From NCBI GenBank assembly GCA_963692525.1, contig OY829953.1, positions 4,420,720-4,484,719 on the forward strand: a DNA stretch of 64,000 nt. Reading direction: 5' to 3'. The notes beneath the pieces are model-generated. The model searched no databases. It saw only the letters and a program-made list of their open reading frames with translations, and was not told the origin of the DNA. Positions 4,898 to 50,285 of the stretch are shown one piece after another; position 1 is the first letter of the stretch; each line of letters opens with the position of its first letter. This DNA comes from Opitutales bacterium. Lineage in GTDB: Bacteria; Verrucomicrobiota; Verrucomicrobiia; Opitutales; PNEW01. The position numbers and the translations under genes were made by a program.

Positions 4898-5008
4898 TTT
4901 GTCATTGCGAGTCACAACGCGACGAAGCAATCCAGGGGACTGAACTTACGCAATAGACAGCCTCCTGGATCGCCGCAGTCGGCTTCGCCTTCTTCGCGAG
5001 GACAAAAG
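4898..5008. repeat. Hairpin element of the 'gtcattgcgag / caatccagg' family (short form)
   Basis: Left arm 'ttgtcattgcgagtcacaacgcgacgaagcaatccagggg', loop of about 26 nt, right arm 'ctggatcgccgcagtcggcttcgccttcttcgcgaggacaa'. Confidence 0.7.
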
Positions 5009-5088
5009 AATACGTTCGAAAATCGAAAATCGACATATCTCTTATGACATCATCTTCAGATCCGAAGGATACAACGAGAGGACTGCGC

Positions 5089-10116: not shown

Positions 10117-10366
10117 TTTTCGTCTTCGTCCGCATCTGCGTCAGTGTCTCTTTGTCATTGCGAGGGAGGCTATCAGCCGACCGCGGCAATCCAGGGGGAT
10201 GTCTGTTGTGTAATTACAGTCCCTAGATATTAGAGTTCACTCTAAGCTGGACGAATCCTCAATGGAAAGATCTGAGTTGTGCTTGGCAATTTAAGACACA
10301 ATGACTATTCGCCTGGATTGCCACGTCGCGTTGCTCCTCGCAATGACAATTGGGACGAAGACGAAG
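10117..10366. repeat. Nested palindrome: 'acgaagacgaag' outer arms around a 200-bp 'gtcattgcgag / caatccagg' element (X arm + ... Y arm -)
   Basis: Outer arms are 'cgtcttcgtcc' (10121-10131) and 'ggacgaagacgaag' (10353-10366). Inner arms are 10151-10203 and 10301-10350. The same element is inverted at 38491-38722. Confidence 0.8.
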
Positions 10367-11301: not shown

Positions 11302-11404
11302 CGTATATTTTCGTGTGAATTAAATTGCATCAGTGACAGATAACAGTCCAAGTTAAAAACGCCATGTTTATTAAATCAACCCATTAAGTTTCGGACTGAT
11401 TCTT

Positions 11405-11538
11405 TTTGTCATCGCGAGGCTGATTGTCAGCCGTGGCGATCCAGGGGAATATCGGACGCATATTGTAAGCCCCCTGGAATGGAAGATGTCGCTACGCTCG
11501 GTAGCGGCAGTCGGCCACGCCTCCTTCGCAATGACAAG
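11405..11538. repeat. Hairpin element of the 'gtcatcgcgag / cgatccagg' family carrying a 25-nt module insertion
   Basis: Same element as 50311-50421, but with 'ggaagatgtcgctacgctcggtagc' (11481-11505) inserted in the right arm. Confidence 0.8.
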
Positions 11539-11790
11539 ATTGAATAATGATGGGAGAAGACGCTCTGAGAAAAAGTAATGGAGGGCCACGCTCCGTCGTG
11601 GCCGTTAATTTTAAAATTAACCCTACATATCTTATTATAGGAATATAGAAAAAGGTTATATTAAAGAAATAAAGGGACGAAGACGAAGCTGTTTCGATAG
11701 TAGGTCACTCATCTTCTCATTCACGCATATCCCTTTTGACTTTTTGACTATTATCATGTGATTTTAGGTTTTAGAGATGGGAGATAAATT

Positions 11791-13569
11791 TTGAAAATTG
11801 CGAGTTTTGTACGGGATGGAGAAATCGATTGTGGGCTGGTCGACGGTGATCAGGGTTACCGGGTTTTTGACAATCACCCTGTAATCGGCAGCTTAAACTC
11901 CGAAAGCAGAATCTTCCACCTCCTCGGTCTATCGCCTGAAGAGAGAGATCGAGTCGATGAGGAGATGAAGGGTGCACCACTGATTTCTAGCAGTGAAATC
12001 AAACTGCTTCCCGCCATTCCTCACTGTCCGCTTTATATTTATAATCATGCGAATAATCCAACTGTATGGAAGCGGCAGATAAACAGAGAGTGGGAAGTCA
12101 CGCGATTGCCCTATATGCGGATCAGATCCTACAATTGCTTCAGCGGTGATGGGTGGGAAATTCCGATACACCCCGGGACAACGCTGTCTTGTGGGGCCGA
12201 GCTGGGTGTCGTGATCGGCCGTGAAGCCTACCGGGTTCCCCCCGAAAAAGCCGTGGAGCATATCGCCGGCCTCGTCTGTCTGAACGACAACTTCATCGAA
12301 GGTGATCACGAAGCATTCATCGACAACTCATCACCTGAGTCGGAGATGCACCAACACCAGGGTCTGCACGTTCTTTTTAAAACCGGTGATGGTAACGGCG
12401 GAATGGGACCCTGGATAACAACCGCTGAAGAATTTGAAAAGGTCATTGAAAACCGTTTACAACAGCAAGCATCTGATCGTTATCGGAATGTCCATGCCGC
12501 ATCCTGGATCTATGACAAAATGATGTGGACAAAAATAAACGGAGAAATCTGTGACGAGGCTTATACCGGCACCTATCTCTTCGGTGCGGAGTGGATGATT
12601 ACCTACCTCTCTCGATTTATGACCTTGCCCACAGGATCTATTATCGGCCTGGGAGCAGCGGGTTGGGACGGCGTGCACTTGCCCAGCATGGATGAACCGG
12701 GAGCAGCGTTTGAGGTGGCGGTCGAGTTACAGGGTGTAGGTGCATCCCGCACGACGGTCAGAAGACAAGCTGTCGATGAAGCAAGTGAGAGTCCCTTTAT
12801 TAAAAACATTACCGCTGCCGGTCTCAATCCTTCAAAGGCTATAATAAAACGCCCGTGCCGTGCGCTCTGGGTTCAACGCGGAAACAATCCCGAATCGGAT
12901 CCGGGTCTCCCCGTGACCGGTTTAAATCCTATTCTCTTTCCCACGACCGCATTGAAAGAAGATGCCAGCCCTATTATCCTTCCCCCTCACGCCACAAGTA
13001 TTCATCTTTCCGTCCAGGTTGCCGGAATTGTCGGCCCCGGAACACTCTATGGGCTCGGCAGTGACGGGCGGAAAATTAATGAAGAGGAATGTATTGAAAG
13101 GATCTCTCTTTTCGTGTCGGTAAGAGATACCTCGCTCATAGATGCGATAAAAGATCCATTCCCCTATGAAATGCGTGCAGCATATTTTTTCAGTTCTTGT
13201 GCTGACGGATTTTTCAGGCTCGGCGATCCCCTCCCCTATAAAGATATTGTGGACCTTTCAGCACAGACTATAAAGATGTCACTCCCTGGAATTGGGGAAC
13301 GCAATTGCAGCATAGCTGATTACCGTTTCGGGTTTTCAGAGATGCTCGCGATGATCAGCCGGACGATCACCCTATTTCCCGGTGATGTTGTCTCCCTCGG
13401 AGCGGCGGGCGCAGAAATTGTAATTCCGTCAGACTCGAAGATAGAAAAAGTGGAGAACAACGACGATAATGGAGAAGGCATTTTATCAGTCGACTCTTCC
13501 TGGGGCGCAACGATGCGTTTGACATTTGACGATCAGAGAGATTCCCGGTTTTTGGAAGTAAGGAGATAG
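11791..13569 (+). CDS. Fumarylacetoacetate hydrolase (FAH) family protein, apparently two tandem FAH-like domains
   Basis: 592 aa with a TTG start. MKIASFVRDGE.. is a typical FAH-family N-terminus. Blocks GAELGVVIGREA..LNDNF (domain 1) and ILFPTTAL..VQVAGIVGPG (domain 2). Confidence 0.7.
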   Translation: MKIASFVRDGEIDCGLVDGDQGYRVFDNHPVIGSLNSESRIFHLLGLSPEERDRVDEEMKGAPLISSSEIKLLPAIPHCPLYIYNHANNPTVWKRQINREWEVTRLPYMRIRSYNCFSGDGWEIPIHPGTTLSCGAELGVVIGREAYRVPPEKAVEHIAGLVCLNDNFIEGDHEAFIDNSSPESEMHQHQGLHVLFKTGDGNGGMGPWITTAEEFEKVIENRLQQQASDRYRNVHAASWIYDKMMWTKINGEICDEAYTGTYLFGAEWMITYLSRFMTLPTGSIIGLGAAGWDGVHLPSMDEPGAAFEVAVELQGVGASRTTVRRQAVDEASESPFIKNITAAGLNPSKAIIKRPCRALWVQRGNNPESDPGLPVTGLNPILFPTTALKEDASPIILPPHATSIHLSVQVAGIVGPGTLYGLGSDGRKINEEECIERISLFVSVRDTSLIDAIKDPFPYEMRAAYFFSSCADGFFRLGDPLPYKDIVDLSAQTIKMSLPGIGERNCSIADYRFGFSEMLAMISRTITLFPGDVVSLGAAGAEIVIPSDSKIEKVENNDDNGEGILSVDSSWGATMRLTFDDQRDSRFLEVRR

Positions 13570-13576
13570 GAGATTA

Positions 13577-13712
13577 GTCAAAACGTCAAAAGGTCAAAAA
13601 GTTGAAGACGATTAGAGTATAAATGCGATCTTAGAATGGGATTAATCTTTCTTTAAATGACGTATCAGAGCAGCATCTACCTTTTGACTTTTTGACCTTT
13701 TGACGTTTTGAC
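13577..13712. terminator. Perfect 26-bp inverted repeat of TTTTGAC words between convergent genes (candidate bidirectional terminator or processing stem)
   Basis: 'gtcaaaacgtcaaaaggtcaaaaagt' (13577-13602) is the exact reverse complement of 13687-13712. The loop is 84 nt. Confidence 0.75.
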
Positions 13713-13720
13713 CCATTGCA

Positions 13721-20161: not shown

Positions 20162-21245
20162 AAAAGTCTGCGGCGTTATCAACCATGATCCGTCGGCGTA
20201 AAGCATCCGGCACGATGCTTGGGATCGCCTTGTCGGGGGCATCGAAGTCCCAGTGAGGATAATCGGTGGCAAAGAGGAGAAAATCATCTCGACCGATCAT
20301 CTCCATTATCTGCATCAGGTGCTCGGGATTTGCCGGCTCTTCCATCGGTTGAGTCGTTGCGCGAAAATGTTCCTGGATGTACTCGCTTGGTAGCTTCTTG
20401 AGCCAGGGCACTTCACTGCGCAATCCCCGGTAATTTTTGTCCAGACGCCACATCAGTGGTGGCAGCCAGGCAAAGCCTCCTTCTATGAGACAGACCCGTG
20501 TCTGAGGAAATTTTTCGAACACGCCCTCGCATACAAGGCTGACAACCTGGGCCTGAAATGCCTGCGCCATGGCGGTGTGGTCCTCAATGTAGTAAGAAGG
20601 CCATCCGCAGGCCGTAATCGGGTTTCCGTTACCACCAAAATGAATACCAATCGGTAGATTCACTTCGGCAGCCGCCTGAAAAATGGGATGAAATTCACGT
20701 CGACCATAGGGCGCGTGTGAACGCACGAGTAAAAGCACCTGGACAAAGCGGGGGTCACGAGCCACCCGTTTTATTTCCTCGGCCGAACTTGCAGCATCAC
20801 ACACGTTGACTGCGATCGACCCTCGCCAGCGCTCATCAGTACTCAGCCAGTCATTCGCTGTCCAGTCATTGACCGCTCGCATCAGCGCATTGGCAAAGTC
20901 AAGATTGAACACGGCCGACACTCCATATAACGGATTAAGAATAGCCCGATCAATTCCCCAGGTGTCCAGCAATTGACGGCTCGCAAAGACTGGATCGCTT
21001 CCCGGTTTTTTTCCGTTAGGCGGCCAGGCGTCCCGGCGCGCAGCCATATCAAAACCTTTCGGGTAGACGGGCCCCGGCGGACTTTTGAATCCCGACTGCT
21101 TGATGTAGGCCTGCCACCTGTCGGGTAAATAGGGCATCAGCTCATCGACCGAATCGGGGTAATTGTGGACGTCGCTATCGATAAGAGAAATAGCCGTCCG
21201 CTCCTGAGCTCCATTCGTCGAGGCTGGTGCAAGTGATTGTTTCAT
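20142..21245 (-). CDS. Amidohydrolase-2 (ACMSD-like TIM-barrel metal hydrolase) family protein
   Basis: [13 protein letters not shown]-terminal metal motif. ATG at 21245 follows a purine-rich stretch; TTG 21284 is an alternative start. Confidence 0.8.
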
Positions 21246-21307
21246 GGAAATCTTCTTTCTATATTCCGGAGTTTGAAATACCAACCGACAGGGTCATTTG
21301 CAACCGG

Positions 21308-21324
21308 AAAAAAAAGGGGGGGGG
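21308..21324. repeat. A8G9 double homopolymer tract
   Basis: 'aaaaaaaaggggggggg' lies between the four-helix-bundle gene's stop and the amidohydrolase start. Confidence 0.95.
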
Positions 21325-21328
21325 ATAA

Positions 21329-21357
21329 GTGAACAGTAAACAGTGAACAGTGAATAG
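21329..21357. repeat. 'gtgaacagt' word array, left arm of cassette 1
   Basis: 'gtgaacagtaaacagtgaacagtgaatag' is complementary to 21817-21850. Confidence 0.85.
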
Positions 21358-21369
21358 ATAGCTATCTCG

Positions 21370-21801
21370 TTATGGTGTGCTGTATTCGGCACCATCTTCT
21401 CTCATGTCAAATGGGTCCTTGACGCAAAAGGATGCGGATTTGAATGTCATACTATTCAGCATGCGTCCAATTTTGGAAAGCTTTTCACATAACTCGTTCG
21501 CTTTATCTTCGTTTAAATACATGCAATCTACCGCCGTTTCAATCCAGTGCTGCGTTTCATATTGTTCAGCATCTGCATCTGTAAGTTTACTCACAAAATG
21601 TTTCTCATAACGTCGTTTTCCCCATGCCTCAGCAATTTGGGCACCAATTGATCTGGATGACCGCCTTACTTGGTCTGTAAGCGAATAGATTTCTTCCTTA
21701 GGAACTTCTTTTGAGATTATGAAGATCTCAACAGAAACTGTTCTTGCCTTACGATAAACAATCAGGTCCCTGAAATTGGAAGCATGTGGATTTTTATGCA
21801 C
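21370..21801 (-). CDS. Four-helix-bundle protein (23S rRNA intervening-sequence protein / Avd-like family)
   Basis: 143 aa. NFRDLIVYRKA..EIYSLTDQVRRSSRSIGAQIAEAWGKR is typical of this family. GTG start, with 'gaggagg' upstream. Confidence 0.85.
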   Translation of the reverse strand: MHKNPHASNFRDLIVYRKARTVSVEIFIISKEVPKEEIYSLTDQVRRSSRSIGAQIAEAWGKRRYEKHFVSKLTDADAEQYETQHWIETAVDCMYLNEDKANELCEKLSKIGRMLNSMTFKSASFCVKDPFDMREDGAEYSTP

Positions 21802-21816
21802 GATCTACTTCCTCCT

Positions 21817-21850
21817 CTTACTGTTCACTGTTTACTGTTTACTGTTCACT
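21817..21850. repeat. 'actgttcac' word array, right arm of cassette 1
   Basis: 'cttactgttcactgtttactgtttactgttcact' has 16-20 bp of perfect complementarity to 21329-21357, depending on register. Confidence 0.85.
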
Positions 21851-21879
21851 CCTACCTATCGTCCTTTCCTCTTAAAATC

Positions 21880-23556
21880 TTAACCCTGCTTATCAATAAA
21901 CTGAAATGCGTAAATACTGGCTTGATGGAGATGAAAAATTAGGCGAACCGGCTTGTTCCACAGCGCACTCAGATCCGTTTTCCCTTTCCAACTGACGGTG
22001 TGCCAGATTTCATTGGGATCGTCACTGACCACGGGATCGCAGTCCTCAGTGGAAAAACCAGCAAAGGGTTTAAAGTGAGCATCAACTATCTCCACCTCAA
22101 TGTATCCGCCATAGGTATCCGCATTTACTTTTAAGGTATCGCCTTCGAAGACAAACTGCCGGGTAATCACCTTGCCGTTTTCATAATTTGGTTTCAGTTC
22201 TGCCCAGCCATCTTCGCGCAGGATGAGGGTGCTGATCCCTCCATCTTCCCTCGGAAATTTACCCATATTCTCAACCAGGCTCGCGTAATCGCGATCCCCT
22301 TTTTCAAAATTTTCTTCGGGCACAAAGGTTGTCGGCAGTGGGCGAATGTTTTTATATTTCGGTTGCGGTGGTCGGCCGTGCCAACTTTGTTTCTTAGGAC
22401 CTGTAGAGTGGACGATGTAGATTTTACCGTCATGGACAAGTTGCCCGGCAACCGAAGCAGCTACGAATCCACTATTATAACTGCCAGGCCGTCCATTATC
22501 TACCCATGGCTCCGAACCGCTTGCCCGCTGCCAATGTATTCCATCGCGACTGACGTAGAGACTTAAGTTCGCATAAGCCTGGTCGCGCCAATTCCGTGTC
22601 TTACCGACAACCCAAATCGGTTCGGAGTGAAATTCTGTCGCGATGCCGATGTAGAGACCACCCACCTTGCGCACCGACATTTCATGAAATTCTACATTGG
22701 GCGGTAAATGGGGGTCACCATCAACCGACAGCACCACCTCTTTAGGTGACCAATTGATGAAGTCCTCACTCACCTGCCGGCCAACCTGCCGCTTTAGGTG
22801 GAGAAAGTTCCAGTGATGGGAATACTGGCTGTAAGCAATCCATTTATTTATCGAATCATCCCAGATCGCGCGTTGATAATGATGATGGCGCATCGGCGTA
22901 TCCTCACTGACGGTGGTCCATTGCAAGCCGTCTGGCGAGACGGCCACTGTCGACATTGTTTTTTGCCCTCTCTCCTGCGCTTTGTCATTAGGATTGTAAA
23001 GTAGCATGAATTTACGTGCGGGATCGCTTTGGTCGGGATTCACCACCAGGGCAATATGATGACCGGAATCTTCAAGAACGATATTGGTTGCTTTGTGTTC
23101 TTTATAAGGGAAACATTTTTCACTGAGTGGTTTTTCCCAATGCCGACAATCCTGTGACTCGGCATAACAAAGGATCATGCCCGAATCACCCCAGGCTCCA
23201 CCGACATAAGATTGGCAGTACCAGAGCATGAACTTGCCGTCATCCGGATCCTGGAGAGCCGCGGCAGGAAAAATACCCGGTTTCAATTCCCAGGGTAGTT
23301 CCCTCGACTTGAAGATTGGATTTTTCGGTCGTTGGGGCTTGCATATGACACGCTTTACATCTTCGAGATGATCGAGGATGAAGTTATCAAGAAATAACTG
23401 CCTCTCCGTGCCAATGTGTAAGGTGTGTACTGCGTAATCGGGCGTGAAATAAGGATAATTGTCATCGATGGGCCGCGTGCCGGCTTGGGTCTCTTCAATC
23501 CTGCGCCGCACATCGAGCGCTTCCGTCGGGTTTTTCTTCTCAGGTTTTTCTTTCAT
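21880..23556 (-). CDS. Glycoside-hydrolase-like beta-propeller protein with C-terminal beta-sandwich, paralog 1
   Basis: 558 aa with no signal peptide. Motifs LCYAESQDCRHWEKP and VSPDGLQWT. About 70% identical to 23940..25628. Confidence 0.5.
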   Translation of the reverse strand: MKEKPEKKNPTEALDVRRRIEETQAGTRPIDDNYPYFTPDYAVHTLHIGTERQLFLDNFILDHLEDVKRVICKPQRPKNPIFKSRELPWELKPGIFPAAALQDPDDGKFMLWYCQSYVGGAWGDSGMILCYAESQDCRHWEKPLSEKCFPYKEHKATNIVLEDSGHHIALVVNPDQSDPARKFMLLYNPNDKAQERGQKTMSTVAVSPDGLQWTTVSEDTPMRHHHYQRAIWDDSINKWIAYSQYSHHWNFLHLKRQVGRQVSEDFINWSPKEVVLSVDGDPHLPPNVEFHEMSVRKVGGLYIGIATEFHSEPIWVVGKTRNWRDQAYANLSLYVSRDGIHWQRASGSEPWVDNGRPGSYNSGFVAASVAGQLVHDGKIYIVHSTGPKKQSWHGRPPQPKYKNIRPLPTTFVPEENFEKGDRDYASLVENMGKFPREDGGISTLILREDGWAELKPNYENGKVITRQFVFEGDTLKVNADTYGGYIEVEIVDAHFKPFAGFSTEDCDPVVSDDPNEIWHTVSWKGKTDLSALWNKPVRLIFHLHQASIYAFQFIDKQG

Positions 23557-27887: not shown

Positions 27888-28080
27888 AGACCGGAGGGCC
27901 GGAAAGCCAGAAAACCGGATATCCAGTTCCGAGTTCCGCCGTCGCGGAACGACATCTTCCAAGCCAGCGTTCCGGAAAGCCGGAAGACCAGACAGCCTGA
28001 TAGCCAGAAAGCAGTGATTAGTAAATTATCTAGTGTTAGAGCTCCTGCCTTTTGACCTTTTGACTTTTTGACATTTTGAC
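27886..28080. repeat. Composite: 'ccggaaagcc' words - hairpin module - 'ccggaaagcc' words - TTTTGAC array
   Basis: Hairpin module at 27923-27965 (stem gttccgc/gcggaac). Flanking purine-rich words at 27886-27919 and 27966-28012. 'ccttttgaccttttgactttttgacattttgac' at 28047-28080. Confidence 0.75.
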
Positions 28081-28166
28081 TCAACTCTTTAACTGTCCCA
28101 ACCACGATTGATAGCAATATTGAAGGTGATTGACCGTTTATCTTTAATATATATTCATTAAAAATA

Positions 28167-36099: not shown

Positions 36100-36270
36100 A
36101 AGACCAGCGTTCCGGTTCCGAGTTCCACAATCGCGGAATGACGTCTTCCAAATCGAAAAACTGAATTGATAGAGGATGCAAATTTCACTTCGAAACCCGT
36201 TAGGCACAATCTGCAATCCAATATCCGCAATCAGCAATTGTCTGGCTTTTTGACTTTTTGACCTTTTGAC
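36100..36270. repeat. Composite of repeat modules
   Basis: Hairpin module at 36112-36154. 'caatctgcaatccaatatccgcaatcagcaattg' at 36207-36240. 'ggctttttgactttttgaccttttgac' at 36244-36270. Confidence 0.7.
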
Positions 36271-36286
36271 TCTATCCAATCGGATA

Positions 36287-38464: not shown

Positions 38465-38790
38465 CTTATTCGTTTTCGTGTTTTGTCACTATTGTCATTG
38501 CGAGGAGTGAAACGACGAAGCAATCCAGGCGAATAGTCATTTAACTTACGAATACCAGTCGCTGCTCAGATTTTCCAATGTGGGTTCGATGAACAAATTA
38601 TTGTATATTGAAAATCGGCATTCGTACTCCAGAGTGTAGCTTTACATGCAAGGATTGTGATAATGCAACTGACATCCCCCTGGATTGCCGCGGTCAGCTG
38701 ATAGCCTCCCTCGCAATGACAAGTGAGCATCATGTATCAATCCGGTCTTCCGGTTTTCCTTCTTTCTGACCTTCTGGAATTCCGGCTTTC
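38465..38790. repeat. 232-bp 'gtcattgcgag / caatccagg' element (Y arm + ... X arm -) flanked by word arrays
   Basis: Arms at 38491-38540 and 38671-38722. The rc of 38671-38722 matches 10151-10203 at 51 of 53 nt. 'ccggtcttccggttttcc..ccggctttc' words at 38731-38790. Confidence 0.8.
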
Positions 38791-40054: not shown

Positions 40055-40130
40055 TACTTCTTCTTATGCTCCCACAAATTAATCTCAAGAATTAAGAATA
40101 GAGGTCAAGCGGTTATGTGGACGGAGGGGA

Positions 40131-40415
40131 GAAGGTGTCGGGTTTCAGGTGTCGGTGAAGCGGGTTCCCATCGACTACGCTCAGTGTAGACAGGTTTCAG
40201 AGTTTAGCCGGAGTACCGGTTCCGAGTTCCGCCTTTGCGGAACGACATCTTCCAAACCAGACAACCGGAAAGTCGGAAGGCCGAGGTACGAGATAGGCAA
40301 CTTGTCCTAAGCCCAGTACCTGGAAACTATCTTCACTTAAAACCTAACACCTAAAACTTAACACGCGCGTAGCGCTCCCCTCCTTTTGACTTTTTGACAT
40401 TTTGACATTTTGACC
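40131..40415. repeat. Composite of at least five module types
   Basis: 'gaaggtgtcgggtttcaggtgtcgg' (rc copy at 45879-45907). 'gggttcccatcgactacgctcag' follows. Hairpin module at 40213-40258. 'cttaaaacctaacacctaaaacttaacac' follows. TTTTGAC array at 40382-40415. Confidence 0.75.
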
Positions 40416-43132: not shown

Positions 43133-45700
43133 ATGAATCTCTCCTATGCTGTCACTTTATGTTTAACCACCTTCCTATGCTTTATCGGGCGCGCCGAAGG
43201 TGAAACGCGAAGACCAGAGAACATCACCTGGGAAGAACTGCCAGAACTCCCCAACGCCCAAGGTCTGGGAGGGGCTTTTGCCGGGGTCAGCAATGGCGCG
43301 CTCATCGTCGCTGGAGGTTCGAATTTTTCACAGGCCGCGGAAACAGGACTCGGAAGCAAAGTCTGGTATGCGGATATTTACGTTCTGCCCGAAACTGAGC
43401 GAGCAACTTGGCTAACGGGTTATAAACTGAATGAGCCGCGAGCTTACGGAGCATCCGTTAGTAGTGGTAAGCATTTAATCCTGATTGGCGGAAGCAGTGC
43501 AGAGGGTTATCACAATGAGGTTACGCAAATTACCTGGGAGGCCACTACTCAGAGAGTGAAACAAGAGTTGCTTCCTTCCCTGCCGCTAAATCTAACATTA
43601 AACGGCGCTGTTGAAATTGATGATATTGTATACGTTGTGGGGGGTCAGATCGATGACGAGAGAGCGAACTTGAAGAAGATCTTCTGGTCACTCAACCTGA
43701 ATAACCCCGAAGCGGGATGGGAATCGTTAGAAACCTGGGGGGGACCTGCCCGGAGAAGCGCTGTTGTTGTGAGTCAGAATACCGGCAATAGAAGAAACAT
43801 ATACATTATGGGCGGTGAAACACTCATCGAAAATGAAATGGGTGAAATTCACTCCAAGCAGTTGACTGACGGCTACCGCTACTCACTGCATAAGGATAAG
43901 TGGGAACAGACTAAGGATATCCCCCACCCCGTAACCGCGGCTCCCGGTATTGCTTATGGTCAATCACACATACTTATTTACGGTGGGAAAACACATGAGG
44001 ATATCGCACTGGACCCCTCTTATTCACGCGATCTTCTTGTCTATCATACGATCACGGACACCTGGCTAATAAAAGCCGAGATGCCTTTAAGCCTGGTGTC
44101 AGCAGAAGCGGTATCCTGGGGTGAAGGAATCGCCTTAACCGGTGGCGAGACCGAACCTGGGACGATGACCCCAAAGGTGCAATTAATGATTCACGACCCA
44201 GGAGCTGGCGCGTCGTTTGGAATTATAAATTACACTTTTCTCACTCTCTATCTCATGGGCATAGTTTACCTTGGCTTTTACTTTTCCAAAAGAGAAAAAG
44301 GAACGGATGATTACTTTCTTGCGGGGCGCCGTGTTCCCTGGTGGGCGGCAGGGCTCAGTTTACTGGGCACAGGGCTTAGCGCCGTTACTTATATTGCCCA
44401 TCCCGCCTTAACTTTTTCTACGGACTGGTTTTATTTTCCGGTTCGGATCGGGTTCTTTTTCGCACCGATCATGATAATTTATTTCTACCTGCCATTTTAT
44501 CGAAGGTTAAATATTACGACCGCTTACGAATACCTGGAGCTACGTTTTAACGTGGCCGTACGCTTATTCGGCAGTGCTCAATTTATTTTATTTCAATTGT
44601 TGAGGATCAGTCTAATCATGTATCTACCCGCCATTGTTCTTACCACGATCACGGGGATAAATATTTATGTATGCATACTGTCTTTAGGATTGATCAGCAC
44701 TTTTTACACGGTACTGGGCGGCATTGAAGCGGTGATTTGGTCGGATGTTATCCAAGTGTTCATATTCATTGCCGGACTCATAGTTGCCCTGATCGTCGTC
44801 TTCTTTAATGTCGATAACGGTTTTAAAGGGATGATCGATATTGGTCTCGCCGATGATAAATACCGGATGTGGTACCTGGACTGGGATTTTACCGAACCAA
44901 CATTGTGGGTATTATTAATTAGCGGTGCGATGGGTACCTTTATAGTCTTATCCTCCGACCAAAGCAGAATACAAAGATTTCTAACAACAAAAGATGAAAA
45001 AGGTGCGGCGAAAGGGTTATGGTTAAACGTAATTGCCAGTCTTCCGCTGGGGGTAATCGTCCTTGCCATGGGATCAGCACTTTACGCTTATTACAAAACA
45101 CACCCGAGCAGTGTCAGCTTGGGGATGCGGAACGACGCGATTTTTCCTCTCTTCATCGCGCAAAATCTTCCCACAGGTATTGCCGGTTTCGTCATCGCGG
45201 CCATCTTTTCCGCGGCGATGTCGAGTCTGGACAGCGGGATGAACTCTATCGCTACAGTCTTTGTCACCGATTTTTATCGTCGGTTTAAAGCGAATAATTC
45301 TGATAAATTTTATTTAAACCTCGCGCGTTCCATTACCTTGCTCATTGGTATTTTTGCAACCTCTGTCGCCCTCCTCCTGGTTACCTTGAATATTTATTCT
45401 GCTGTTATCTTCGCCAGCTCCGTCTTAGGGCTTTTTATTGGGGGATTGGGGGGATTATTTGCCCTCGGTATTTTTACTCGACGGGCGAATGGGTATGGGG
45501 CCTTCGTCGGCGCGGTCATCAGTGCAATAATCCTTTATTATGTAAAATACCATACTCCGATAAGTATATTCCTCTACCCCACGATTGGATTCACCGTCTG
45601 TCTTGTCGCCGGGTATTTTGCCAGTCTGATTATACCCGAGCGGAAAAAATCCCTCGAAGGACTGACTATTTACACGGTCCTACCGAGGGGTGATCAGTGA
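43133..45700 (+). CDS. Fusion: periplasmic kelch/NanM-like beta-propeller + sodium:solute symporter (SSS) family transporter
   Basis: Signal peptide. Kelch-like blocks GGAFAGVSNGALIVAGGSNF and YGASVSSGKHLILIGG resemble E. coli NanM. From about aa 365 it carries the SSS hallmark DYFLAGRRVPWWAAGLS and about 13 TMs. Confidence 0.8.
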   Translation: MNLSYAVTLCLTTFLCFIGRAEGETRRPENITWEELPELPNAQGLGGAFAGVSNGALIVAGGSNFSQAAETGLGSKVWYADIYVLPETERATWLTGYKLNEPRAYGASVSSGKHLILIGGSSAEGYHNEVTQITWEATTQRVKQELLPSLPLNLTLNGAVEIDDIVYVVGGQIDDERANLKKIFWSLNLNNPEAGWESLETWGGPARRSAVVVSQNTGNRRNIYIMGGETLIENEMGEIHSKQLTDGYRYSLHKDKWEQTKDIPHPVTAAPGIAYGQSHILIYGGKTHEDIALDPSYSRDLLVYHTITDTWLIKAEMPLSLVSAEAVSWGEGIALTGGETEPGTMTPKVQLMIHDPGAGASFGIINYTFLTLYLMGIVYLGFYFSKREKGTDDYFLAGRRVPWWAAGLSLLGTGLSAVTYIAHPALTFSTDWFYFPVRIGFFFAPIMIIYFYLPFYRRLNITTAYEYLELRFNVAVRLFGSAQFILFQLLRISLIMYLPAIVLTTITGINIYVCILSLGLISTFYTVLGGIEAVIWSDVIQVFIFIAGLIVALIVVFFNVDNGFKGMIDIGLADDKYRMWYLDWDFTEPTLWVLLISGAMGTFIVLSSDQSRIQRFLTTKDEKGAAKGLWLNVIASLPLGVIVLAMGSALYAYYKTHPSSVSLGMRNDAIFPLFIAQNLPTGIAGFVIAAIFSAAMSSLDSGMNSIATVFVTDFYRRFKANNSDKFYLNLARSITLLIGIFATSVALLLVTLNIYSAVIFASSVLGLFIGGLGGLFALGIFTRRANGYGAFVGAVISAIILYYVKYHTPISIFLYPTIGFTVCLVAGYFASLIIPERKKSLEGLTIYTVLPRGDQ

Positions 45701-45948
45701 ACAGTGAGAAAATGTAGCAGATTGTGCAGAAAAATCCACATGCCGCGAATTGCTTAGATTATATTGCATCGTGAATCATGCATCTTGCATCCTGAACCTT
45801 GAACTATCTTCACCTAAAACCTAAAACTTAACACTGCTACTGCATTTTCACCGTTCACTGTTTACTGTTCACTTCTTCCCTGAAACCTGACACCCGACAC
45901 CCTCTCCGCACTTTTCACTTTCCACTTATCATTTCTCACTTCTCTCTC
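45697..45948. repeat. Word-array intergenic region containing a decayed four-helix-bundle cassette
   Basis: 'gtgaacagtgag' (45697-45708) overlaps the stop codon. 'ccgttcactgtttactgttcac' at 45852-45873. 'cctgaaacctgacacccgacaccc' at 45879-45907. 'cttcacctaaaacctaaaacttaacac' at 45808-45834. Confidence 0.8.
45724..45774 (+). pseudogene. Remnant of a third four-helix-bundle gene (first ~10-16 codons only)
   Basis: 'gtgcagaaaaatccacatgccgcgaat' (MQKNPHAAN) aligns with the 5' ends of both intact copies (MHKNPHASNF and MQRNPHAVNF). It is flanked by the same words in the same relative order. Confidence 0.55.
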
Positions 45949-48528
45949 ATGAAACAATCCTGTGTTATCTTATTGTGCTTAGCTGCCTTGAATTGCATAG
46001 CAGGGCACAGTGAAAGCGCAGCGCCGACACAGGAAGCCATCAGTTGGAGTGAACTTCCCGAACTGCCTAACCGCTTAGGTCTGGGAGGGGCTTTTGCCGG
46101 GGTCAGCAATGGCGCGCTCATCGTCGCTGGTGGTTCGAATATTCCACAAGGTTCGGAAGCAGAAGTAGGAAGCAAAGTCTGGCATGCGGACATTTACGTT
46201 CTGCCCGAATCTGAGCAAGACGCATGGCTAACGGGATATAAACTGGAAAATCCTCAAGCTTACGGAGCATCCGTAAGTAGTGGTGAGCATTTGATCCTGA
46301 TTGGCGGAAATAATGCAGAGGGTTATCACAAAGAGGTTACGCAAATTACATGGGATACCACGACCCAGAAAATGAATCAAGAGTTCCTGCCGCCCCTTCC
46401 CCAGGCTCTCGCATACACCGGCGCTGCAGAAATAGATGATATTGTATATGTTGTGGGTGGTCAGGTTGACGGCGAGAGATCAAGTCTGAAGAATATTTTT
46501 TGGTCACTTGACCTGAATAATCGGGAAGCGGGATGGAAATTGCTAAAATCCTGGGAGGGCCCGGCGAGGAGAAGGGCCATCGTTGTAGGCCAGAATATTA
46601 GTAATGGCAGATATGTATACATTATTGGCGGTGAAGAAAGGATTCAGAATGAAAATGGTGAGATTCAAAGCAGGCAATTGACCGACGGCTACCGCTATTC
46701 CCTTCGTTATGAGCAATGGGAACCTATCGCCGACGCCCCCCACCCCGTAACCGGGGCCTCTGGAGTTGCCTATGGGCAATCACATATTCTTATCTTTGGA
46801 GGCAATACCTGGAAGCACAAGGATGTGAATTCAAGTAAGGATCATCCCAGCTATTCACGCGATCTTCTCGTCTATCACACGGTCACTGATACCTGGTTGG
46901 TAAAAGGTGAAATACCATTAGGGGTTGTGTCTTCTGAAGCGGTGTTATGGGAAGAAGGGATCGCCATTACCGGTGGAGAGACAGAACCAGGGATAATGAC
47001 CCCTAAGGTTCAAATAATGATTCATGATGCGGGAGCGAATGCATCGTTTGGAATCATAAATTATGCTTTTCTCCTGCTGTATATGGTGGCGCTTATCTAT
47101 ATGGGTTTTTATTTTTCCAGGCGGGAGAAAGGAACAAAAGATTATTTTCTCGCCGGTCATCGTATACCGTGGTGGGCGGCAGGGCTCAGTATTCTGGGAA
47201 CCGGACTTAGCGCCCTAACTTATATTTCCTATCCCGCATTGGCTTACACCACGGACTGGTTCCTATTTCCCGGAAGGATTGGGTTAATCTTTGCTCCAAT
47301 AATTGTTATCTATTTTTTCCTGCCGTTTTACCGAAGGCTTAATGTTACTACCGCTTACGAATACCTGGAGAAACGATTTAATCTGCCTGTTCGCTTATAC
47401 GGGAGTGTACAATTCATAATTTATCAATTAATCAGGATCAGTATTATTCTTTATCTACCGGCAGTCGTTCTCTCCACCATCGCGGGGATTAATATCTACT
47501 TATGTATTCTCTTTATGGGATTAATCAGCACCTTTTACACCGTGCTGGGTGGTATCGAAGCGGTCATATGGTCGGATGTTTTACAGGTCATTATATTTTT
47601 TATCGGTATCATTATTGCCCTCATCGTCATTCCTTTTCATATCGATAATGGTTATAAGGGGATAATCGATATCGGTTTGGCTGATGATAAATACCGCATG
47701 TTGTATCTGGAGTGGGACTTTACTGCGCCCGTCCTATGGGTGTTATTAATTAGTAGTGCTTTTGGTGCCTTTTTGGGACCATCCACCGATCAAACCACGA
47801 TCCAAAGGTATCTTACGACGAAGGACGAAAAAGCGGCCGCGAAAGGGATATGGTTAAGTGCTATAATAGGTATTCCCGTCGGTTTTTTATTTTATGGAAT
47901 GGGTACCGCCCTCTACGCCTATTATAAAACGCACCCAGCCACAGTCAGCATGGGAATGCAGAATGACGCGATTTTTCCTCTCTTCATCGCACAAAATCTT
48001 CCCTTCGGGCTTGCCGGTTTTGTCATTGCAGCCATCTTTTCCGCAGCGATGTCGAGTCTTGACAGCGGGATGAACTCGGTGGCCACGGTCATTGTCACAG
48101 ATTTTTACCGACGCTTCAAACCCAAGAAACCCGATCGTCTCTATTTGTATCTGGCTCGCTCGGTTACCTTAGTCATCGGTCTCATTGTCACCGTTATCGC
48201 CCTCTCTCTGGTTACTTTTGATATTCATAATGCCGCATTGTTTGCTACCGCTATCGCCGGATTGTTTATCAGCGGATTGGGCGGACTGTTTGCCCTGGGT
48301 ATTTTTACTCGACGTGCGAATGGTATTGGTGCCTTAGTCGGTGCGATTACCAGTGCGATAGTCCTTTATTTTGTGAAATTTGAAACACCGATACACTTTC
48401 TCCTCTACTCATCTATCGGATTCATCACCTGTTTTGTCGTTGGCTATTTATCCAGTCTATTTATACCCGAGCGAAAAAAGTCTCTCGAGGGGCTGACGAT
48501 TTATTCCATGCTCGCGAGGAAGGAATAG
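45949..48528 (+). CDS. Fusion: periplasmic kelch/NanM-like beta-propeller + sodium:solute symporter, tandem paralog
   Basis: 859 aa, colinear with 43133..45700 and roughly two-thirds identical to it. Confidence 0.8.
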   Translation: MKQSCVILLCLAALNCIAGHSESAAPTQEAISWSELPELPNRLGLGGAFAGVSNGALIVAGGSNIPQGSEAEVGSKVWHADIYVLPESEQDAWLTGYKLENPQAYGASVSSGEHLILIGGNNAEGYHKEVTQITWDTTTQKMNQEFLPPLPQALAYTGAAEIDDIVYVVGGQVDGERSSLKNIFWSLDLNNREAGWKLLKSWEGPARRRAIVVGQNISNGRYVYIIGGEERIQNENGEIQSRQLTDGYRYSLRYEQWEPIADAPHPVTGASGVAYGQSHILIFGGNTWKHKDVNSSKDHPSYSRDLLVYHTVTDTWLVKGEIPLGVVSSEAVLWEEGIAITGGETEPGIMTPKVQIMIHDAGANASFGIINYAFLLLYMVALIYMGFYFSRREKGTKDYFLAGHRIPWWAAGLSILGTGLSALTYISYPALAYTTDWFLFPGRIGLIFAPIIVIYFFLPFYRRLNVTTAYEYLEKRFNLPVRLYGSVQFIIYQLIRISIILYLPAVVLSTIAGINIYLCILFMGLISTFYTVLGGIEAVIWSDVLQVIIFFIGIIIALIVIPFHIDNGYKGIIDIGLADDKYRMLYLEWDFTAPVLWVLLISSAFGAFLGPSTDQTTIQRYLTTKDEKAAAKGIWLSAIIGIPVGFLFYGMGTALYAYYKTHPATVSMGMQNDAIFPLFIAQNLPFGLAGFVIAAIFSAAMSSLDSGMNSVATVIVTDFYRRFKPKKPDRLYLYLARSVTLVIGLIVTVIALSLVTFDIHNAALFATAIAGLFISGLGGLFALGIFTRRANGIGALVGAITSAIVLYFVKFETPIHFLLYSSIGFITCFVVGYLSSLFIPERKKSLEGLTIYSMLARKE

Positions 48529-48663
48529 AAAGCCGGAGGACCAGAGAACCAGAAGACCGAAAAGCCGTAGGACTAGTGAGAGAGGGTGGAAGATGTCGAG
48601 CTACGCTCTCGGTACGGGGTTCAGAGGATAGTGAACAGTGAACGGTAAACAGTGAACAGTGGG
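48529..48663. repeat. Left flank of cassette 2: 'ccggaggaccag' words, hairpin-type module and 'gtgaacagt' array
   Basis: Module 'gtggaagatgtcgagctacgctctcggtacggggttcagagg' at 48586-48627. Array at 48631-48663. Confidence 0.8.
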
Positions 48664-48678
48664 AAAATGATTGACGCC

Positions 48679-49113
48679 CTACAGGGTGAAATAATCGGCG
48701 TCATCTTCTTTAATAATAAATGGGAATTTCTCACAAAATGATGCGGACTTGTCTATCATGCTATTCAACATACGTCCGATTTTGGAAAGCTTTTCACATA
48801 GCTTGTTCGAATTATCATCACTTAAATACCCGCTATCTACAGCAGTCTCAATCCAATGCTGCGTTTCATATTGTTCAGCATCTGCATCTGTAAGTTTACT
48901 CACAAAATGTTTCTCGTAACGTCGTTTCCCCCATGCTTCCGCTATTTGGGCCCCAATCGATCTTGACGATCTCCGCACCTGGTCAGTAAGTGAATAGATT
49001 TCTTCCATTGGGAATTGTTTTGAGATAATGAAGATTTCCTCAGCAACATTCCTTGCTTTCTGATAAACGATCAGATCCCTGAAATTTACAGCGTGCGGGT
49101 TTCTCTGCATCAT
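48679..49113 (-). CDS. Four-helix-bundle protein (23S rRNA intervening-sequence protein / Avd-like family)
   Basis: 144 aa. A 57-aa central block is identical to 21370..21801. Confidence 0.85.
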   Translation of the reverse strand: MMQRNPHAVNFRDLIVYQKARNVAEEIFIISKQFPMEEIYSLTDQVRRSSRSIGAQIAEAWGKRRYEKHFVSKLTDADAEQYETQHWIETAVDSGYLSDDNSNKLCEKLSKIGRMLNSMIDKSASFCEKFPFIIKEDDADYFTL

Positions 49114-49123
49114 CAGCTTCCCT

Positions 49124-49249
49124 CTTACTGTTCACTGTTTACTGTTCACATCTAACTATCGGCATTTTTCCTGAACCCTGTACCGAGGGCGTAGTCCGAC
49201 ATCTTCCACTCTGAACCCTTTCTCACTGTTCACTGTTTACTGTTCACAG
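49124..49249. repeat. Right flank of cassette 2: 'actgttcac' array, inverted hairpin-type module, second 'actgttcac' array
   Basis: 49127-49149 is complementary to 48631-48663 with 1 mismatch in 23. 49170-49210 is the inverted copy of 48586-48627 (about 37 of 41). A second array lies at 49222-49249. Confidence 0.8.
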
Positions 49250-49257
49250 ATTACTGA

Positions 49258-50274
49258 TCAACTCGTCCAGACTTCACGGAAGAGTCGCAGCCAGTTTCCG
49301 CCCAGGATAAGGGTGATGTCGGCTGGCTTGTAGCCCCGAGCGAGGAGTGAATCGGCGAGGGCGGGCATCTTATCCGGTGTTTCCAGTCCTTTGGGCGCAT
49401 GTGCTAATTCCGCATAACCTTTGGGTCCGTCGAAAAAAGTGGAAGGGAGTTTTGTCCCCTGCTGCGCACCGATGTAATTCCAGAATTCCTGTGGCTGATC
49501 CTGAGTAAAGTCCGTTCCGAACCCCACGTGTTCAACACCGATTCGTTGAACGAGGTCGTCAATCGCGTCTACGAAATTCTCGATCGTGGATTCGCGGCCA
49601 GCGGGCAGAAACATGTTGAATGCCGTCGCGCCACACACGCCCCCTCGATCCGCCAATAATTTCAGTGCTTCATCCGTTTTATTTCTCGGGTGCATGTGAA
49701 AGCTCTGCGCATTGGCGTGCGTGCAGGCGACCGGTTTGCTCGACATCTCAATCGCATCGATCGTTGTCCGTTCACCACAGTGGGAGAGATCAATCAATAT
49801 ACCCAATCGGTTCATCTCATGCACTGCGTCGATACCAAAGTTGCTGAGGCCGGCATCACCGCGTTCCAAACAACCATTGCCGATAAAATTTCGCTCGTGA
49901 AAAGTGAGTTGCATGATGAGCACACCGAGGGAGCGAAACAGTTCGATGCGCCGCAAATCGTTTTCAATCGGAGTCGCGTTCTGCCATCCCAGAATAACAC
50001 CGACTTTACCGTCCTGCTTTGCTTTCAGGATGTCATCTACGCTGTTGACTTGAATGATTTGTGCACTTCGCTCCCTGAAAATATCCTGCCAGTCAGCGAT
50101 AGTGCCCAAAGTCTGTTGAAAATTTTCCCACGTCACGAGGGTCGCATTTATCGCAGTGGTACCGCTTGCGGCCAGACTCTCATAGACGGCGGGACTCTTC
50201 CAATTACTCACATTAAGCGCATCGATTACAATCGCTTCATCGTAGATTTCTTTCGCAGTATTTTCTTTTGGCAT
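49258..50274 (-). CDS. Membrane dipeptidase (peptidase family M19)
   Basis: 338 aa with VIDALN.. and DLSHCGERTTIDAIEMSSKPVACTHANA blocks. Confidence 0.85.
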   Translation of the reverse strand: MPKENTAKEIYDEAIVIDALNVSNWKSPAVYESLAASGTTAINATLVTWENFQQTLGTIADWQDIFRERSAQIIQVNSVDDILKAKQDGKVGVILGWQNATPIENDLRRIELFRSLGVLIMQLTFHERNFIGNGCLERGDAGLSNFGIDAVHEMNRLGILIDLSHCGERTTIDAIEMSSKPVACTHANAQSFHMHPRNKTDEALKLLADRGGVCGATAFNMFLPAGRESTIENFVDAIDDLVQRIGVEHVGFGTDFTQDQPQEFWNYIGAQQGTKLPSTFFDGPKGYAELAHAPKGLETPDKMPALADSLLARGYKPADITLILGGNWLRLFREVWTS

Positions 50275-50285
50275 TGTCAGTTTCT

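What the first reader, a model, noticed from the sequence alone, without database searches (positions are those of the whole stretch)
21329..21850. Cassette 1: a four-helix-bundle (23S-IVS / Avd-like) gene in the loop of a word-array stem
The 143-aa ORF 21370..21801 (-) is enclosed by 'gtgaacagtaaacagtgaacagtgaatag' (21329-21357) and 'cttactgttcactgtttactgtttactgttcact' (21817-21850). These arms offer 16-20 bp of perfect complementarity depending on register. They start 13 nt beyond the stop and 16 nt beyond the start, and the RBS 'gaggagg' lies inside the stem-enclosed unit. Established knowledge: this protein family was first found as ORFs inside 23S rRNA intervening sequences, whose flanking inverted repeats form a stem cut by RNase III. 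The DGR accessory protein Avd has the same fold. Here the same ORF-in-a-stem architecture lies between protein-coding genes on the same strand, a GH-like gene upstream and an amidohydrolase operon downstream. That suggests an IVS-like element living in mRNA spacers rather than in rRNA.
Basis: partly seen in the sequence, partly recalled or inferred. Interest (0 to 1): 0.75.

Follow-up and report, generated by a model that had tools for sequence, protein, structure and literature searches.

The report
Mobile four-helix-bundle gene in heptamer stem
A small, conserved gene of the '23S rRNA intervening-sequence protein' family sits between inverted arrays of 7-base words inside an ordinary operon. 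The same gene-in-a-heptamer-stem unit recurs across many bacterial phyla and in true rRNA intervening sequences, so it looks like one widespread, gain-and-loss genetic element whose movement and purpose are still unknown.

Summary
ORF 21370..21801(-) is a full-length PF05635/TIGR02436 four-helix-bundle (4HB) protein. It lies between 30-nt inverted arms (93% complementary) built of GTGAACA/GTAAACA heptamers.

The pattern is family-wide. Among 80 homolog loci from at least five phyla, 64% of 4HB genes have such inverted flanks, against 3% of other ORFs. Only period 7 is enriched. The two arms of each cassette co-vary.

Cyanobacterial plasmid copies show the same layout. So does a genuine 23S rRNA IVS in Azospirillum. 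Published Coxiella work puts an RNase III cut at the first heptamer.

The unit is gained or lost as a block. Close relatives have the orthologous spacers empty for cassette 1 and for cassette 2. A 94%-identical cassette sits in another context in another Opitutales genome. A decayed copy lies at 45.7 kb.

The gene is co-directional with its upstream neighbour in 92% of cases, about 80 nt away, with no promoter signal. It is under purifying selection (dN/dS 0.11).

Best reading: an IVS-type cassette riding in host transcripts. RNase III processing, the protein's role and the way the unit moves remain inferred. Arm mismatches show no sense-RNA wobble signature.

The parts
21821..21850 (-). Cassette 1 upstream (5') arm: (GTGAACA/GTAAACA) x4 on the sense strand. 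It starts 29 nt after the stop of the 558-aa gene.
   Evidence: One heptamer fewer in the orthologous cassette of L176.
21811..21817 (-). Shine-Dalgarno GAGGAGG, between the 5' arm and the GTG start, so inside the stem-enclosed unit.
   Evidence: sequence.
21370..21801 (-). 4HB protein gene, 143 aa, PF05635/TIGR02436, Avd-like fold.
   Evidence: dN/dS 0.11 against cassette 2.
21328..21357 (-). Cassette 1 downstream (3') arm, the reverse complement of the 5' array. It lies 12 nt after the stop codon.
21312..21890 (-). Maximal extent of the inserted unit at this site. Homology to relatives with an empty site resumes at 21311 (ttttccggttgcaaatga) and at the C-terminus of the 558-aa gene.
48679..49113 (-). 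Cassette 2 4HB gene, 144 aa, 80% aa identity to cassette 1.
48628..48660 (-). Cassette 2 downstream arm (heptamer array).
49127..49145 (-). Cassette 2 upstream arm (heptamer array).
48584..48627 (.). Outer inverted repeat, left copy (about 45 nt), which extends the cassette 2 stem. It pairs with 49160-49215.
49160..49215 (.). Outer inverted repeat, right copy.
49225..49243 (-). Additional heptamer array upstream of cassette 2, 14 nt after the stop of the M19 dipeptidase gene.
45690..45875 (+). Decayed cassette. Arms are 45695-45708 and 45850-45873. They enclose about 140 nt that keep only the first ~14 codons of a 4HB gene (GTG at 45724; VQKNPHAANCLDYI) on the + strand, directly after the stop of symporter gene 43133..45700.
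   Evidence: (L003 match).

Best explanation
Cassette 1 is one copy of a widespread, block-wise gained and lost genetic unit. The unit is a 4HB (PF05635, Avd-like) gene with its own ribosome-binding site, bracketed by inverted arrays of about five 7-nt words (consensus G-T-R-A-W-C-A in this subfamily).

The unit lodges just downstream of a host gene in the same orientation. It has no promoter of its own and is transcribed by read-through as part of the host transcript. In that transcript the two arrays pair into a 27-30-bp (or longer) duplex enclosing the ORF. This is the same architecture as ORF-bearing 23S rRNA intervening sequences, where RNase III cuts the heptamer stem.

Cleavage would release a stem-closed 4HB mRNA and separate the flanking host cistrons, so insertion in an operon (or in rRNA) is tolerated. 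The protein is functional. It most plausibly binds nucleic acid, possibly the arrays themselves, and serves the element's persistence or spread. Cassettes decay by internal deletion into gene-less heptamer hairpins that remain scattered in spacers.

Shown: the architecture, its specificity, its generality, the empty sites, the orientation bias and purifying selection. Inferred: read-through transcription, RNase III processing, what the protein binds, and how the unit moves.
For: Family and fold: (2gsc TM 0.93, 2rld, Avd 4dwl TM 0.88).

Specific association: an inverted repeat scoring >=13 between the flanks occurs for 64% of 75 4HB genes against 3% of 525 other ORFs. 91 of 158 period-7 arrays lie within 150 nt of a 4HB gene. 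Forward/reverse array pairs enclose either a 4HB gene (25, about 400-700 nt) or 6-150 nt with no ORF (10). Only period 7 is enriched: 53%/50% of flanks against <=1% for periods 4-6 and 8-11. The two arms of a cassette match each other better than arms of other cassettes (15.9 against 10.0, p 1e-9).

Same layout elsewhere: nine of ten cyanobacterial plasmid copies. Also an ORF inside Azospirillum 23S rRNA. The Coxiella IVS has heptamers with the RNase III cut at the first repeat (PMC4990558).

Gain and loss: L083 and L081 have empty sites, while L176 (94.8% nt identity) is occupied with one heptamer fewer. The cassette 2 site is empty in L161-L164. L001 carries a 93.7%-identical cassette beside different genes.

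Transcript dependence: the upstream neighbour is on the same strand in 69/75 cases against 73% background (p 5e-5), median gap 79 nt; the downstream neighbour shows no bias. No sigma-70-like site or terminator lies around cassette 1.

Functional protein: dN/dS 0.11. Folds close on the arrays with z from -3.9 to -9.5. Host neighbours are functionally unrelated.
Against: Arm mismatches give no sign of selection for pairing in the sense RNA: G.U 56 against A.C 72, p 0.18. Gene-less arrays also occur in divergent, presumably untranscribed spacers (4/43, against 11/237 co-directional). So the arrays may act, or be maintained, at DNA level.

No transposase, recombinase or target-site duplication is associated with the unit, so mobility has no mechanism yet.

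About a third of homologs lack a detectable inverted repeat by my criterion. One cyanobacterial copy (Oscillatoria, L167) has direct, not inverted, arrays.

In Coxiella the ORF is reported as probably not expressed and decaying. A subclade of six cassettes is stably fixed between a histidine kinase and a LuxR-type regulator, which could mean domestication rather than selfishness.

No RNA data exist for this organism.
Confidence: 0.55

Rival explanations
1. DNA-level palindromic element. The inverted heptamer arrays are recombination or protein-binding sites, or ssDNA/cruciform hairpins, in the manner of REP/BIME, REPIN or MITE elements. They are maintained and moved at the DNA level. The RNA stem is incidental, and the 4HB gene is either the trans-acting partner or a passenger.
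For: Mismatches are strand-symmetric. Gene-less hairpins punctuate nearly every spacer of some gene clusters (L034, L009) and occur in all spacer types, including divergent ones. Unit number changes by 7-nt slippage. The decayed copy resembles a MITE derived from an autonomous element.
Against: A purely DNA-level element with symmetric arms should insert in either orientation, yet 92% of genes are co-directional with the upstream host gene. rRNA copies are in the sense orientation and are processed as RNA. No nuclease or recombinase domain is present in the protein or linked to it.
Confidence: 0.25
2. Host-beneficial regulatory or insulator module. The hairpin and its 4HB protein regulate or stabilise neighbouring transcripts, for example as an mRNA stabiliser, attenuator or RNA chaperone. 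On this view it is not a selfish element.
For: Strong purifying selection acts on the protein. There is long-term retention between a kinase and a response regulator in one subclade. The gene also recurs inside cas operons.
Against: Neighbours are functionally unrelated. Close relatives do without the cassette at the same sites. There are multiple copies and decayed copies per genome region. A near-identical copy sits in a different context in another genome.
Confidence: 0.12
3. Leftover or stand-alone accessory gene (Avd) of a diversity-generating retroelement.
For: Weak bAvd/Avd HMM matches and structural similarity to Avd 4dwl.
Against: The NCBIfam Avd score is 40.5 bits against a cutoff of 80. 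No reverse transcriptase is present among the neighbours 18.9-26.6 kb. The best structural matches are the IVS-protein structures.
Confidence: 0.03
4. Coincidence: ordinary simple-sequence spacer arrays that happen to flank a small gene.
For: The window contains other short-period arrays unrelated to 4HB genes.
Against: 16 pattern hits against 0.32 expected, all at 4HB genes or a remnant. Family-wide enrichment with controls.
Confidence: 0.01

Closest known systems
ORF-bearing 23S rRNA intervening sequences (Leptospira, Coxiella, Xanthomonas, Brucella; here also Azospirillum lipoferum AZO_p2)
   Same: Same protein family (PF05635). The ORF is enclosed by inverted repeats that form the closing stem. 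The arms are built of tandem heptamers (Coxiella GACAGAT, Azospirillum GACAGAG/GACGGAG). The ORF is in the sense orientation within the host transcript. Heptamer number varies between strains. Distribution is sporadic. Short ORF-less versions also exist.
   Different: Here the element lies between protein-coding genes of an operon, not in rRNA helix 9/25/45. The SD lies inside the stem-enclosed unit, whereas in Coxiella it is removed by the cut. RNase III cleavage has not been demonstrated for the mRNA-spacer copies.
REP/BIME and REPIN-RAYT systems
   Same: Palindromic repeats dispersed in intergenic spacers, often between co-transcribed genes. A protein gene is itself flanked by inverted copies of the repeat. 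The repeat population varies between strains.
   Different: RAYT is an HUH (Y1) transposase, usually single-copy. The 4HB protein has no catalytic motif and is multi-copy. The repeats here are tandem 7-nt word arrays, not a unique 20-40-nt palindrome.
Cyanobacterial STRR heptanucleotide repeats (named from my own knowledge of Mazel et al. 1990; not read here)
   Same: Tandem heptamers in intergenic regions of unknown function. The cyanobacteria that carry them are also rich in 4HB genes flanked by short-period arrays.
   Different: As far as I know and could find, STRRs were not described as inverted pairs enclosing a specific gene. The Nostoc copies seen here use G-rich 7-8-nt words, not the classical STRR words.
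MITEs and eukaryotic Foldback elements
   Same: Inverted termini. Foldback termini are themselves tandem short repeats. Internally deleted non-coding derivatives outnumber or accompany coding copies.
   Different: No transposase and no target-site duplication were found. The strong orientation bias relative to host transcription is also not a feature of those elements.
DGR accessory protein Avd
   Same: Homologous four-helix-bundle fold (4dwl, TM 0.88). The related crystal entries 2gsc, 2rld and 4dwl all have chains A-E, and the title of the Xcc0516 paper, as cited in the papers read here, describes five four-helix bundles.
   Different: The score is below the Avd family cutoff. There is no RT or template/variable repeats nearby. 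Avd genes are not known to me to be bracketed by heptamer arrays.

Membership tests
PF05635 / TIGR02436 four-helix-bundle ('23S rRNA IVS protein', S23p) family | HMM score above the curated cutoff over the full domain | tested here: met
   PF05635 107.2 bits (cutoff 33.8), profile positions 1-106 of 106; TIGR02436 95.9 bits (cutoff 24). Cassette 2: 110.9 bits.
PF05635 / TIGR02436 four-helix-bundle ('23S rRNA IVS protein', S23p) family | Four-helix-bundle fold like Xcc0516 / BT_0352 | tested here: met
   AF2 model with pLDDT 86.3 and four helices. Foldseek: 2gsc TMt 0.93 and rmsd 1.3; 2rld TMt 0.88.
PF05635 / TIGR02436 four-helix-bundle ('23S rRNA IVS protein', S23p) family | Conserved motif R-x3-S-x3-N-x2-E (quoted in PMC3936711) | tested here: met
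   R46, S50, Q54 (in place of N) and E57 are invariant in the 40-sequence alignment. Motif as quoted.
Bacterial rRNA intervening sequence (IVS) | Located inside a 23S rRNA gene (helix 9, 25 or 45) | tested here: not met
   No Rfam family or tRNA is found in the window. The flanks are protein-coding genes.
Bacterial rRNA intervening sequence (IVS) | Terminal inverted repeats forming a stem that encloses the insert | tested here: met
   compare the true IVS fold.
Bacterial rRNA intervening sequence (IVS) | Excised from the precursor by RNase III without religation | not testable with these tools
   Needs RNA-end mapping in wild type and an rnc mutant. Shown only for rRNA copies in the literature.
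Bacterial rRNA intervening sequence (IVS) | ORF in the sense orientation of the host transcript | tested here: met
   Same strand as both neighbours here. 69/75 across loci.
DGR accessory protein Avd | Score above the NCBIfam DivGenRetAVD cutoff, and an adjacent reverse transcriptase | tested here: not met
   40.5 bits against a cutoff of 80. No RVT domain among the neighbours scanned.
REPIN-RAYT | Repeat-flanked gene encodes an HUH/Y1 transposase | tested here: not met
   Only PF05635/bAvd domains are found.
MITE / insertion sequence | Target-site duplication at the insertion boundaries and a cognate transposase | tested here: not met
   No direct repeat is seen at the boundaries in occupied versus empty comparisons. 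No transposase is linked. The boundaries are blurred by spacer divergence, so a short TSD cannot be fully excluded.
Integron gene cassette | A single attC site at the 3' end, and an integron integrase/attI platform | tested here: not met
   Arms lie on both sides of the ORF. The copies are dispersed, not arrayed.

The most novel reading that the evidence does not exclude
The oligomeric (possibly pentameric) 4HB protein is the sequence-specific binder of the ~5-unit heptamer arrays. It is the trans-acting partner that maintains or mobilises a genome-wide population of heptamer hairpins. This would be a REPIN-RAYT-like association built on a non-enzymatic, Avd-like protein, perhaps recruiting a host nuclease, recombinase or reverse transcriptase. 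It would be present in at least six phyla. ORF-bearing rRNA intervening sequences, the 4HB genes scattered in cas and other operons, and at least part of the cyanobacterial heptamer-repeat phenomenon would then be facets of one system.
Probability: 0.2. Interest if true: 0.9.

Novelty: new variant of a known kind. Interest (0 to 1): 0.78.

Why it matters
ORF-bearing rRNA intervening sequences have been known since 1993. Their origin and the role of their ORF are still described as unclear (PMC4990558). The PF05635 family is large: 18,304 clusters at 50% identity. It is annotated only as 'four helix bundle protein'.

This work shows three things. These genes generally come as a defined unit with inverted heptamer arrays. 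The unit is gained and lost between close relatives. rRNA IVSs share the same heptamer arms. Together these points tie three separate puzzles into one testable object: IVS origin, the function of S23p/Avd-like proteins outside DGRs, and heptamer repeat arrays.

It also explains why these genes turn up inside unrelated operons, including cas operons. It is a likely reason why they break metagenome assemblies. Culturable hosts such as Nostoc punctiforme, Anabaena sp. 90 and Picosynechococcus PCC 7003 make the RNase III and binding predictions directly testable.

Tried and rejected
1. Exact-sequence look-ups of the window's own flanking proteins found nothing. The source genome could not be retrieved, so I have no genome-wide copy count.
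2. The G.U versus A.C mismatch test for sense-RNA pairing gave no signal. Power is low because arrays can pair in several registers.
3. The spacer-type test for gene-less arrays showed no avoidance of divergent spacers. Numbers are small.
4. The search for other cargo between array pairs found only one unclear case, L062, a 319-aa ORF with no Pfam match. Ordinary genes that looked 'flanked' were simply sitting between hairpins in adjacent spacers.
5. I found no target-site duplications. The empty-site spacers are too diverged.
6. Rfam at gathering threshold gave nothing in the window.
7. Seven literature searches found no description of the gene-and-array association beyond the local Coxiella remark. 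The Leptospira IVS paper is not held, and subscription journals are mostly not searchable, so prior description cannot be excluded.
8. I did not test covariation between the protein and the heptamer word. Co-inheritance of gene and arms would produce it with or without binding.
9. The DGR and integron readings were rejected on defining features (see the membership tests).

Full report
OBSERVATION.
The region reads as described. ORF 21370..21801(-) encodes 143 aa from a GTG start, with GAGGAGG 9 nt upstream. The repeat finder gives arms 21328-21357 and 21821-21850, 30 nt and 93% complementary. Each arm is a tandem array of GTGAACA/GTAAACA words. The word pattern occurs 16 times in the window against 0.32 expected, and only at three places. 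Those places are this cassette, a second complete cassette (ORF 48679..49113(-), arms 48628-48660 and 49127-49145) and a short array-flanked unit at 45690-45875. The ORF is a full-length PF05635 / TIGR02436 member. Its AlphaFold model is a confident four-helix bundle (pLDDT 86). The best structural matches are Xcc0516 (2gsc), BT_0352 (2rld) and then the DGR protein Avd (4dwl). Folded as RNA, the sense strand closes on the two arrays (18 + 9 bp; z -3.9). The downstream genes are an Amidohydro_2 protein, a Rieske protein and a PhyH protein. The upstream 558-aa protein has no Pfam match, so 'GH-like' is unconfirmed. No rRNA, tRNA or Rfam family is present in the window.

THE ASSOCIATION IS GENERAL AND SPECIFIC.
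A scan of one genome per species returned 80 loci encoding relatives at 55-81% identity. They come from Verrucomicrobiota (Opitutales closest), Lentisphaerota, Chloroflexota, Bacteroidota, Desulfobacterota and others.
- The best ungapped inverted repeat between the 120 nt upstream and downstream of each homolog is typically a period-7 array. The word differs by lineage: GTGAACA, GTAATCA, GTGATCG, GGTAAGA and others.
- With the other ORFs of the same loci as control, 64% of 75 4HB genes have a flank-to-flank inverted repeat scoring 13 or more, against 3% of 525 other ORFs.
- Of 158 period-7 arrays in 719 kb, 91 lie within 150 nt of a 4HB gene.
- Only period 7 is enriched: 53% and 50% of flanks, against 1% or less for periods 4-6 and 8-11.
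- The arms of one cassette match each other far better than arms from different cassettes (mean 15.9 against 10.0, Wilcoxon p 1e-9).
- The consensus word is G-T-R-A-W-C-A, and both arms have a median of 36 nt, about five units.
- Consecutive forward/reverse array pairs fall into two classes. Twenty-five enclose 400-700 nt with a 4HB gene, and ten enclose 6-150 nt with no ORF. The short ones are clean hairpins.
- In some loci (L034, L009) such hairpins sit in nearly every spacer of a gene cluster, and one of them holds the 4HB gene.

LINK TO TRUE rRNA INTERVENING SEQUENCES AND TO CYANOBACTERIA.
tblastn against plasmids found 35 records, nearly all heterocystous cyanobacteria, annotated 'four helix bundle protein' or 'S23 ribosomal protein'. 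Nine of the ten cyanobacterial copies inspected have short-period arrays upstream and their complement downstream. Examples are GCAGGGA in Nostoc, GGTGACA in Anabaena sp. 90 between cas6 and cas4, and GGAGATAA-type words in Picosynechococcus between cmr2 and cmr3. The Oscillatoria copy has direct arrays.

An eleventh inspected hit, in Azospirillum lipoferum plasmid AZO_p2, is an unannotated ORF inside a 23S rRNA gene (Rfam LSU, 2529 bits) in the sense orientation. Its arms are GACAGAG/GACGGAG/GACAGAA upstream and the complement downstream. Its fold closes on them (z -9.5).

Independently, Warrier et al. 2016 (PMC4990558) report three tandem GACAGAT heptamers upstream of the S23p ORF in the Coxiella IVS. 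The copy number varies among strains. [quoted passage not shown] They treat this as a local feature and call IVS origin and function unclear. Zhang et al. 2014 (PMC3936711) noted 23S_rRNA_IVP genes interspersed in cas operons, with no mention of flanking repeats in the passage read. Seven full-text searches found no description of the general gene-and-array unit.

GAIN AND LOSS.
Cassette 1. A metagenome scan with the downstream amidohydrolase gave syntenic relatives.
- L176 is 94.8% nt identical over 4.6 kb. It has the cassette at the same site, with three rather than four heptamers in the upstream arm.
- L083 has both flanking orthologs abutting and no cassette.
- L081 (89% nt) has an unrelated 185-nt spacer. 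It lacks both the cassette and the 558-aa paralog.
- L082 and L124 carry a methyltransferase-like gene in that spacer.
- Homology to the window resumes at 21311, about 17 nt outside the downstream arm.

Cassette 2. In L161-L164 (M19 dipeptidase 89% aa) the dipeptidase and a single convergent symporter gene are 112 nt apart. The window has an extra 3.5 kb: the decayed cassette, a second symporter paralog and cassette 2.

An Opitutales MAG (L001) carries a cassette 93.7% nt identical to cassette 2 over 615 nt, but between different genes.

The unit at 45.7 kb keeps the arms and the first ~14 codons of a 4HB gene on the + strand. It folds on its arms (z -4.6). It is an internally deleted copy. 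No target-site duplication, transposase or recombinase is associated.

TRANSCRIPT DEPENDENCE AND SELECTION.
The upstream neighbour is on the same strand for 69 of 75 4HB genes. The local background is 73%, giving p 5e-5. The median gap is 79 nt including the array. The downstream neighbour shows no bias (51/75 against 67%). No sigma-70-like promoter site occurs in 20900-22300 (0 against 2.0 expected), and there is no convincing terminator. Upstream host genes are functionally unrelated. The protein is under purifying selection: dN/dS is 0.11 between cassettes 1 and 2 at dS of about 1, and 0.32 between cassette 2 and L001. The family is large, with 18,304 clusters at 50% identity at E of 1e-3 or better. 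Many close relatives sit on contigs under 2 kb, as expected for a repeat.

WHAT ARGUES FOR CAUTION.
- Transition mismatches in the arm pairings are not skewed toward G.U on the sense strand (56 against 72 A.C).
- Gene-less arrays occur in co-directional, convergent and divergent spacers alike (11/237, 8/59, 4/43).
- Both results fit arrays that are maintained, or act, at the DNA level. They do not exclude an RNA stem.
- Six cassettes forming one subclade (71-84% identity) all lie between a histidine kinase and a LuxR-type regulator, and five further cassettes adjoin two-component genes independently. This could reflect long retention or domestication.

MECHANISM AND CLASSIFICATION.
The best-supported reading is an IVS-type cassette that rides in host transcripts. 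The arms form a duplex of RNase III substrate length around a self-contained 4HB cistron. This makes insertion tolerable in operons and in rRNA. The unit is gained and lost as a block and decays to hairpins. Read-through transcription, RNase III cleavage, the protein's ligand and the mobility mechanism are all inferred. The main rival is a DNA-level palindromic element of the REP/REPIN/MITE kind.

The ORF is a member of PF05635. The element is not an rRNA IVS by location, but it shares every other testable feature with one. It is not a DGR Avd, a RAYT, an IS/MITE with a target-site duplication, or an integron cassette.

I rate it a new variant of a known kind. The known kind is the ORF-bearing IVS. 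The new part is its general form, hosts, location, heptamer signature and dynamics.

Noticed in passing
window 11734-11749, 13577-13600, 13682-13713, 28050-28081, 36248-36271, 40384-40415, 50540-50555: A second family of short-period arrays, TTTTGACN (period 8, 2-4 units), is scattered in spacers. Inverted copies flank ORF 11791..13569. It is not associated with 4HB genes. The word contains a -35-like TTGAC.
   Followed up: partly
window 50271-50440, 11397-11545, 4927-5009, 10147-10198, 38676-38730; L001 3564-3701: A dispersed intergenic repeat of about 150 nt with internal palindromes (78-89% identity between copies). It is also present in another Opitutales MAG, and looks MITE-like.
   Followed up: partly
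window 21308-21324: An A8G9 homopolymer run lies immediately outside the downstream arm of cassette 1 and about 65 nt upstream of the amidohydrolase start. Its length differs in the orthologous L176 locus, so it may be slippage-prone.
   Followed up: no
window 45949-48528 and 21880-23556: Both cassettes adjoin a tandem paralog that some close relatives lack. The second symporter gene is absent from L161-L164, and the 558-aa gene is absent from L081. The extra symporter is bracketed by the decayed cassette and cassette 2, which raises the possibility of array-mediated recombination.
   Followed up: partly
L034, L053, L054, L057, L062, L030 (and L009, L019, L021, L032, L077): There is a recurrent histidine kinase -> 4HB cassette -> LuxR-type response regulator arrangement. 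Six loci form one 4HB subclade (71-84% identity). Five others adjoin two-component genes independently.
   Followed up: partly
L082 2665-3413 and L124: In two close relatives, the spacer that holds cassette 1 in the window instead holds a SAM-methyltransferase-like gene, preceded by a ~40-nt palindrome and followed by other period-7 words (CCTGACA, CCGTGAA). The spacer appears to be an insertion hot spot.
   Followed up: no
window 45880-45900, 40130-40160, 60354-60372; L001 4878-4925: Other G-rich period-7 words (GGTGTCG, GGGTTCG/GGGTTCA) occur in spacers, sometimes next to the GTRAACA arrays.
   Followed up: no
L177 237-3462: Two group II intron-type reverse transcriptase genes lie just upstream of a 4HB locus in one metagenome contig. 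They are absent from the otherwise identical locus L178.
   Followed up: no
L167 (Oscillatoria nigro-viridis PCC 7112 plasmid, 1341-2070): This 4HB gene is flanked by long purine-rich GGGGAGAGT-type arrays in direct, not inverted, orientation, and its upstream neighbour is on the opposite strand. It is an exception to the general architecture.
   Followed up: no
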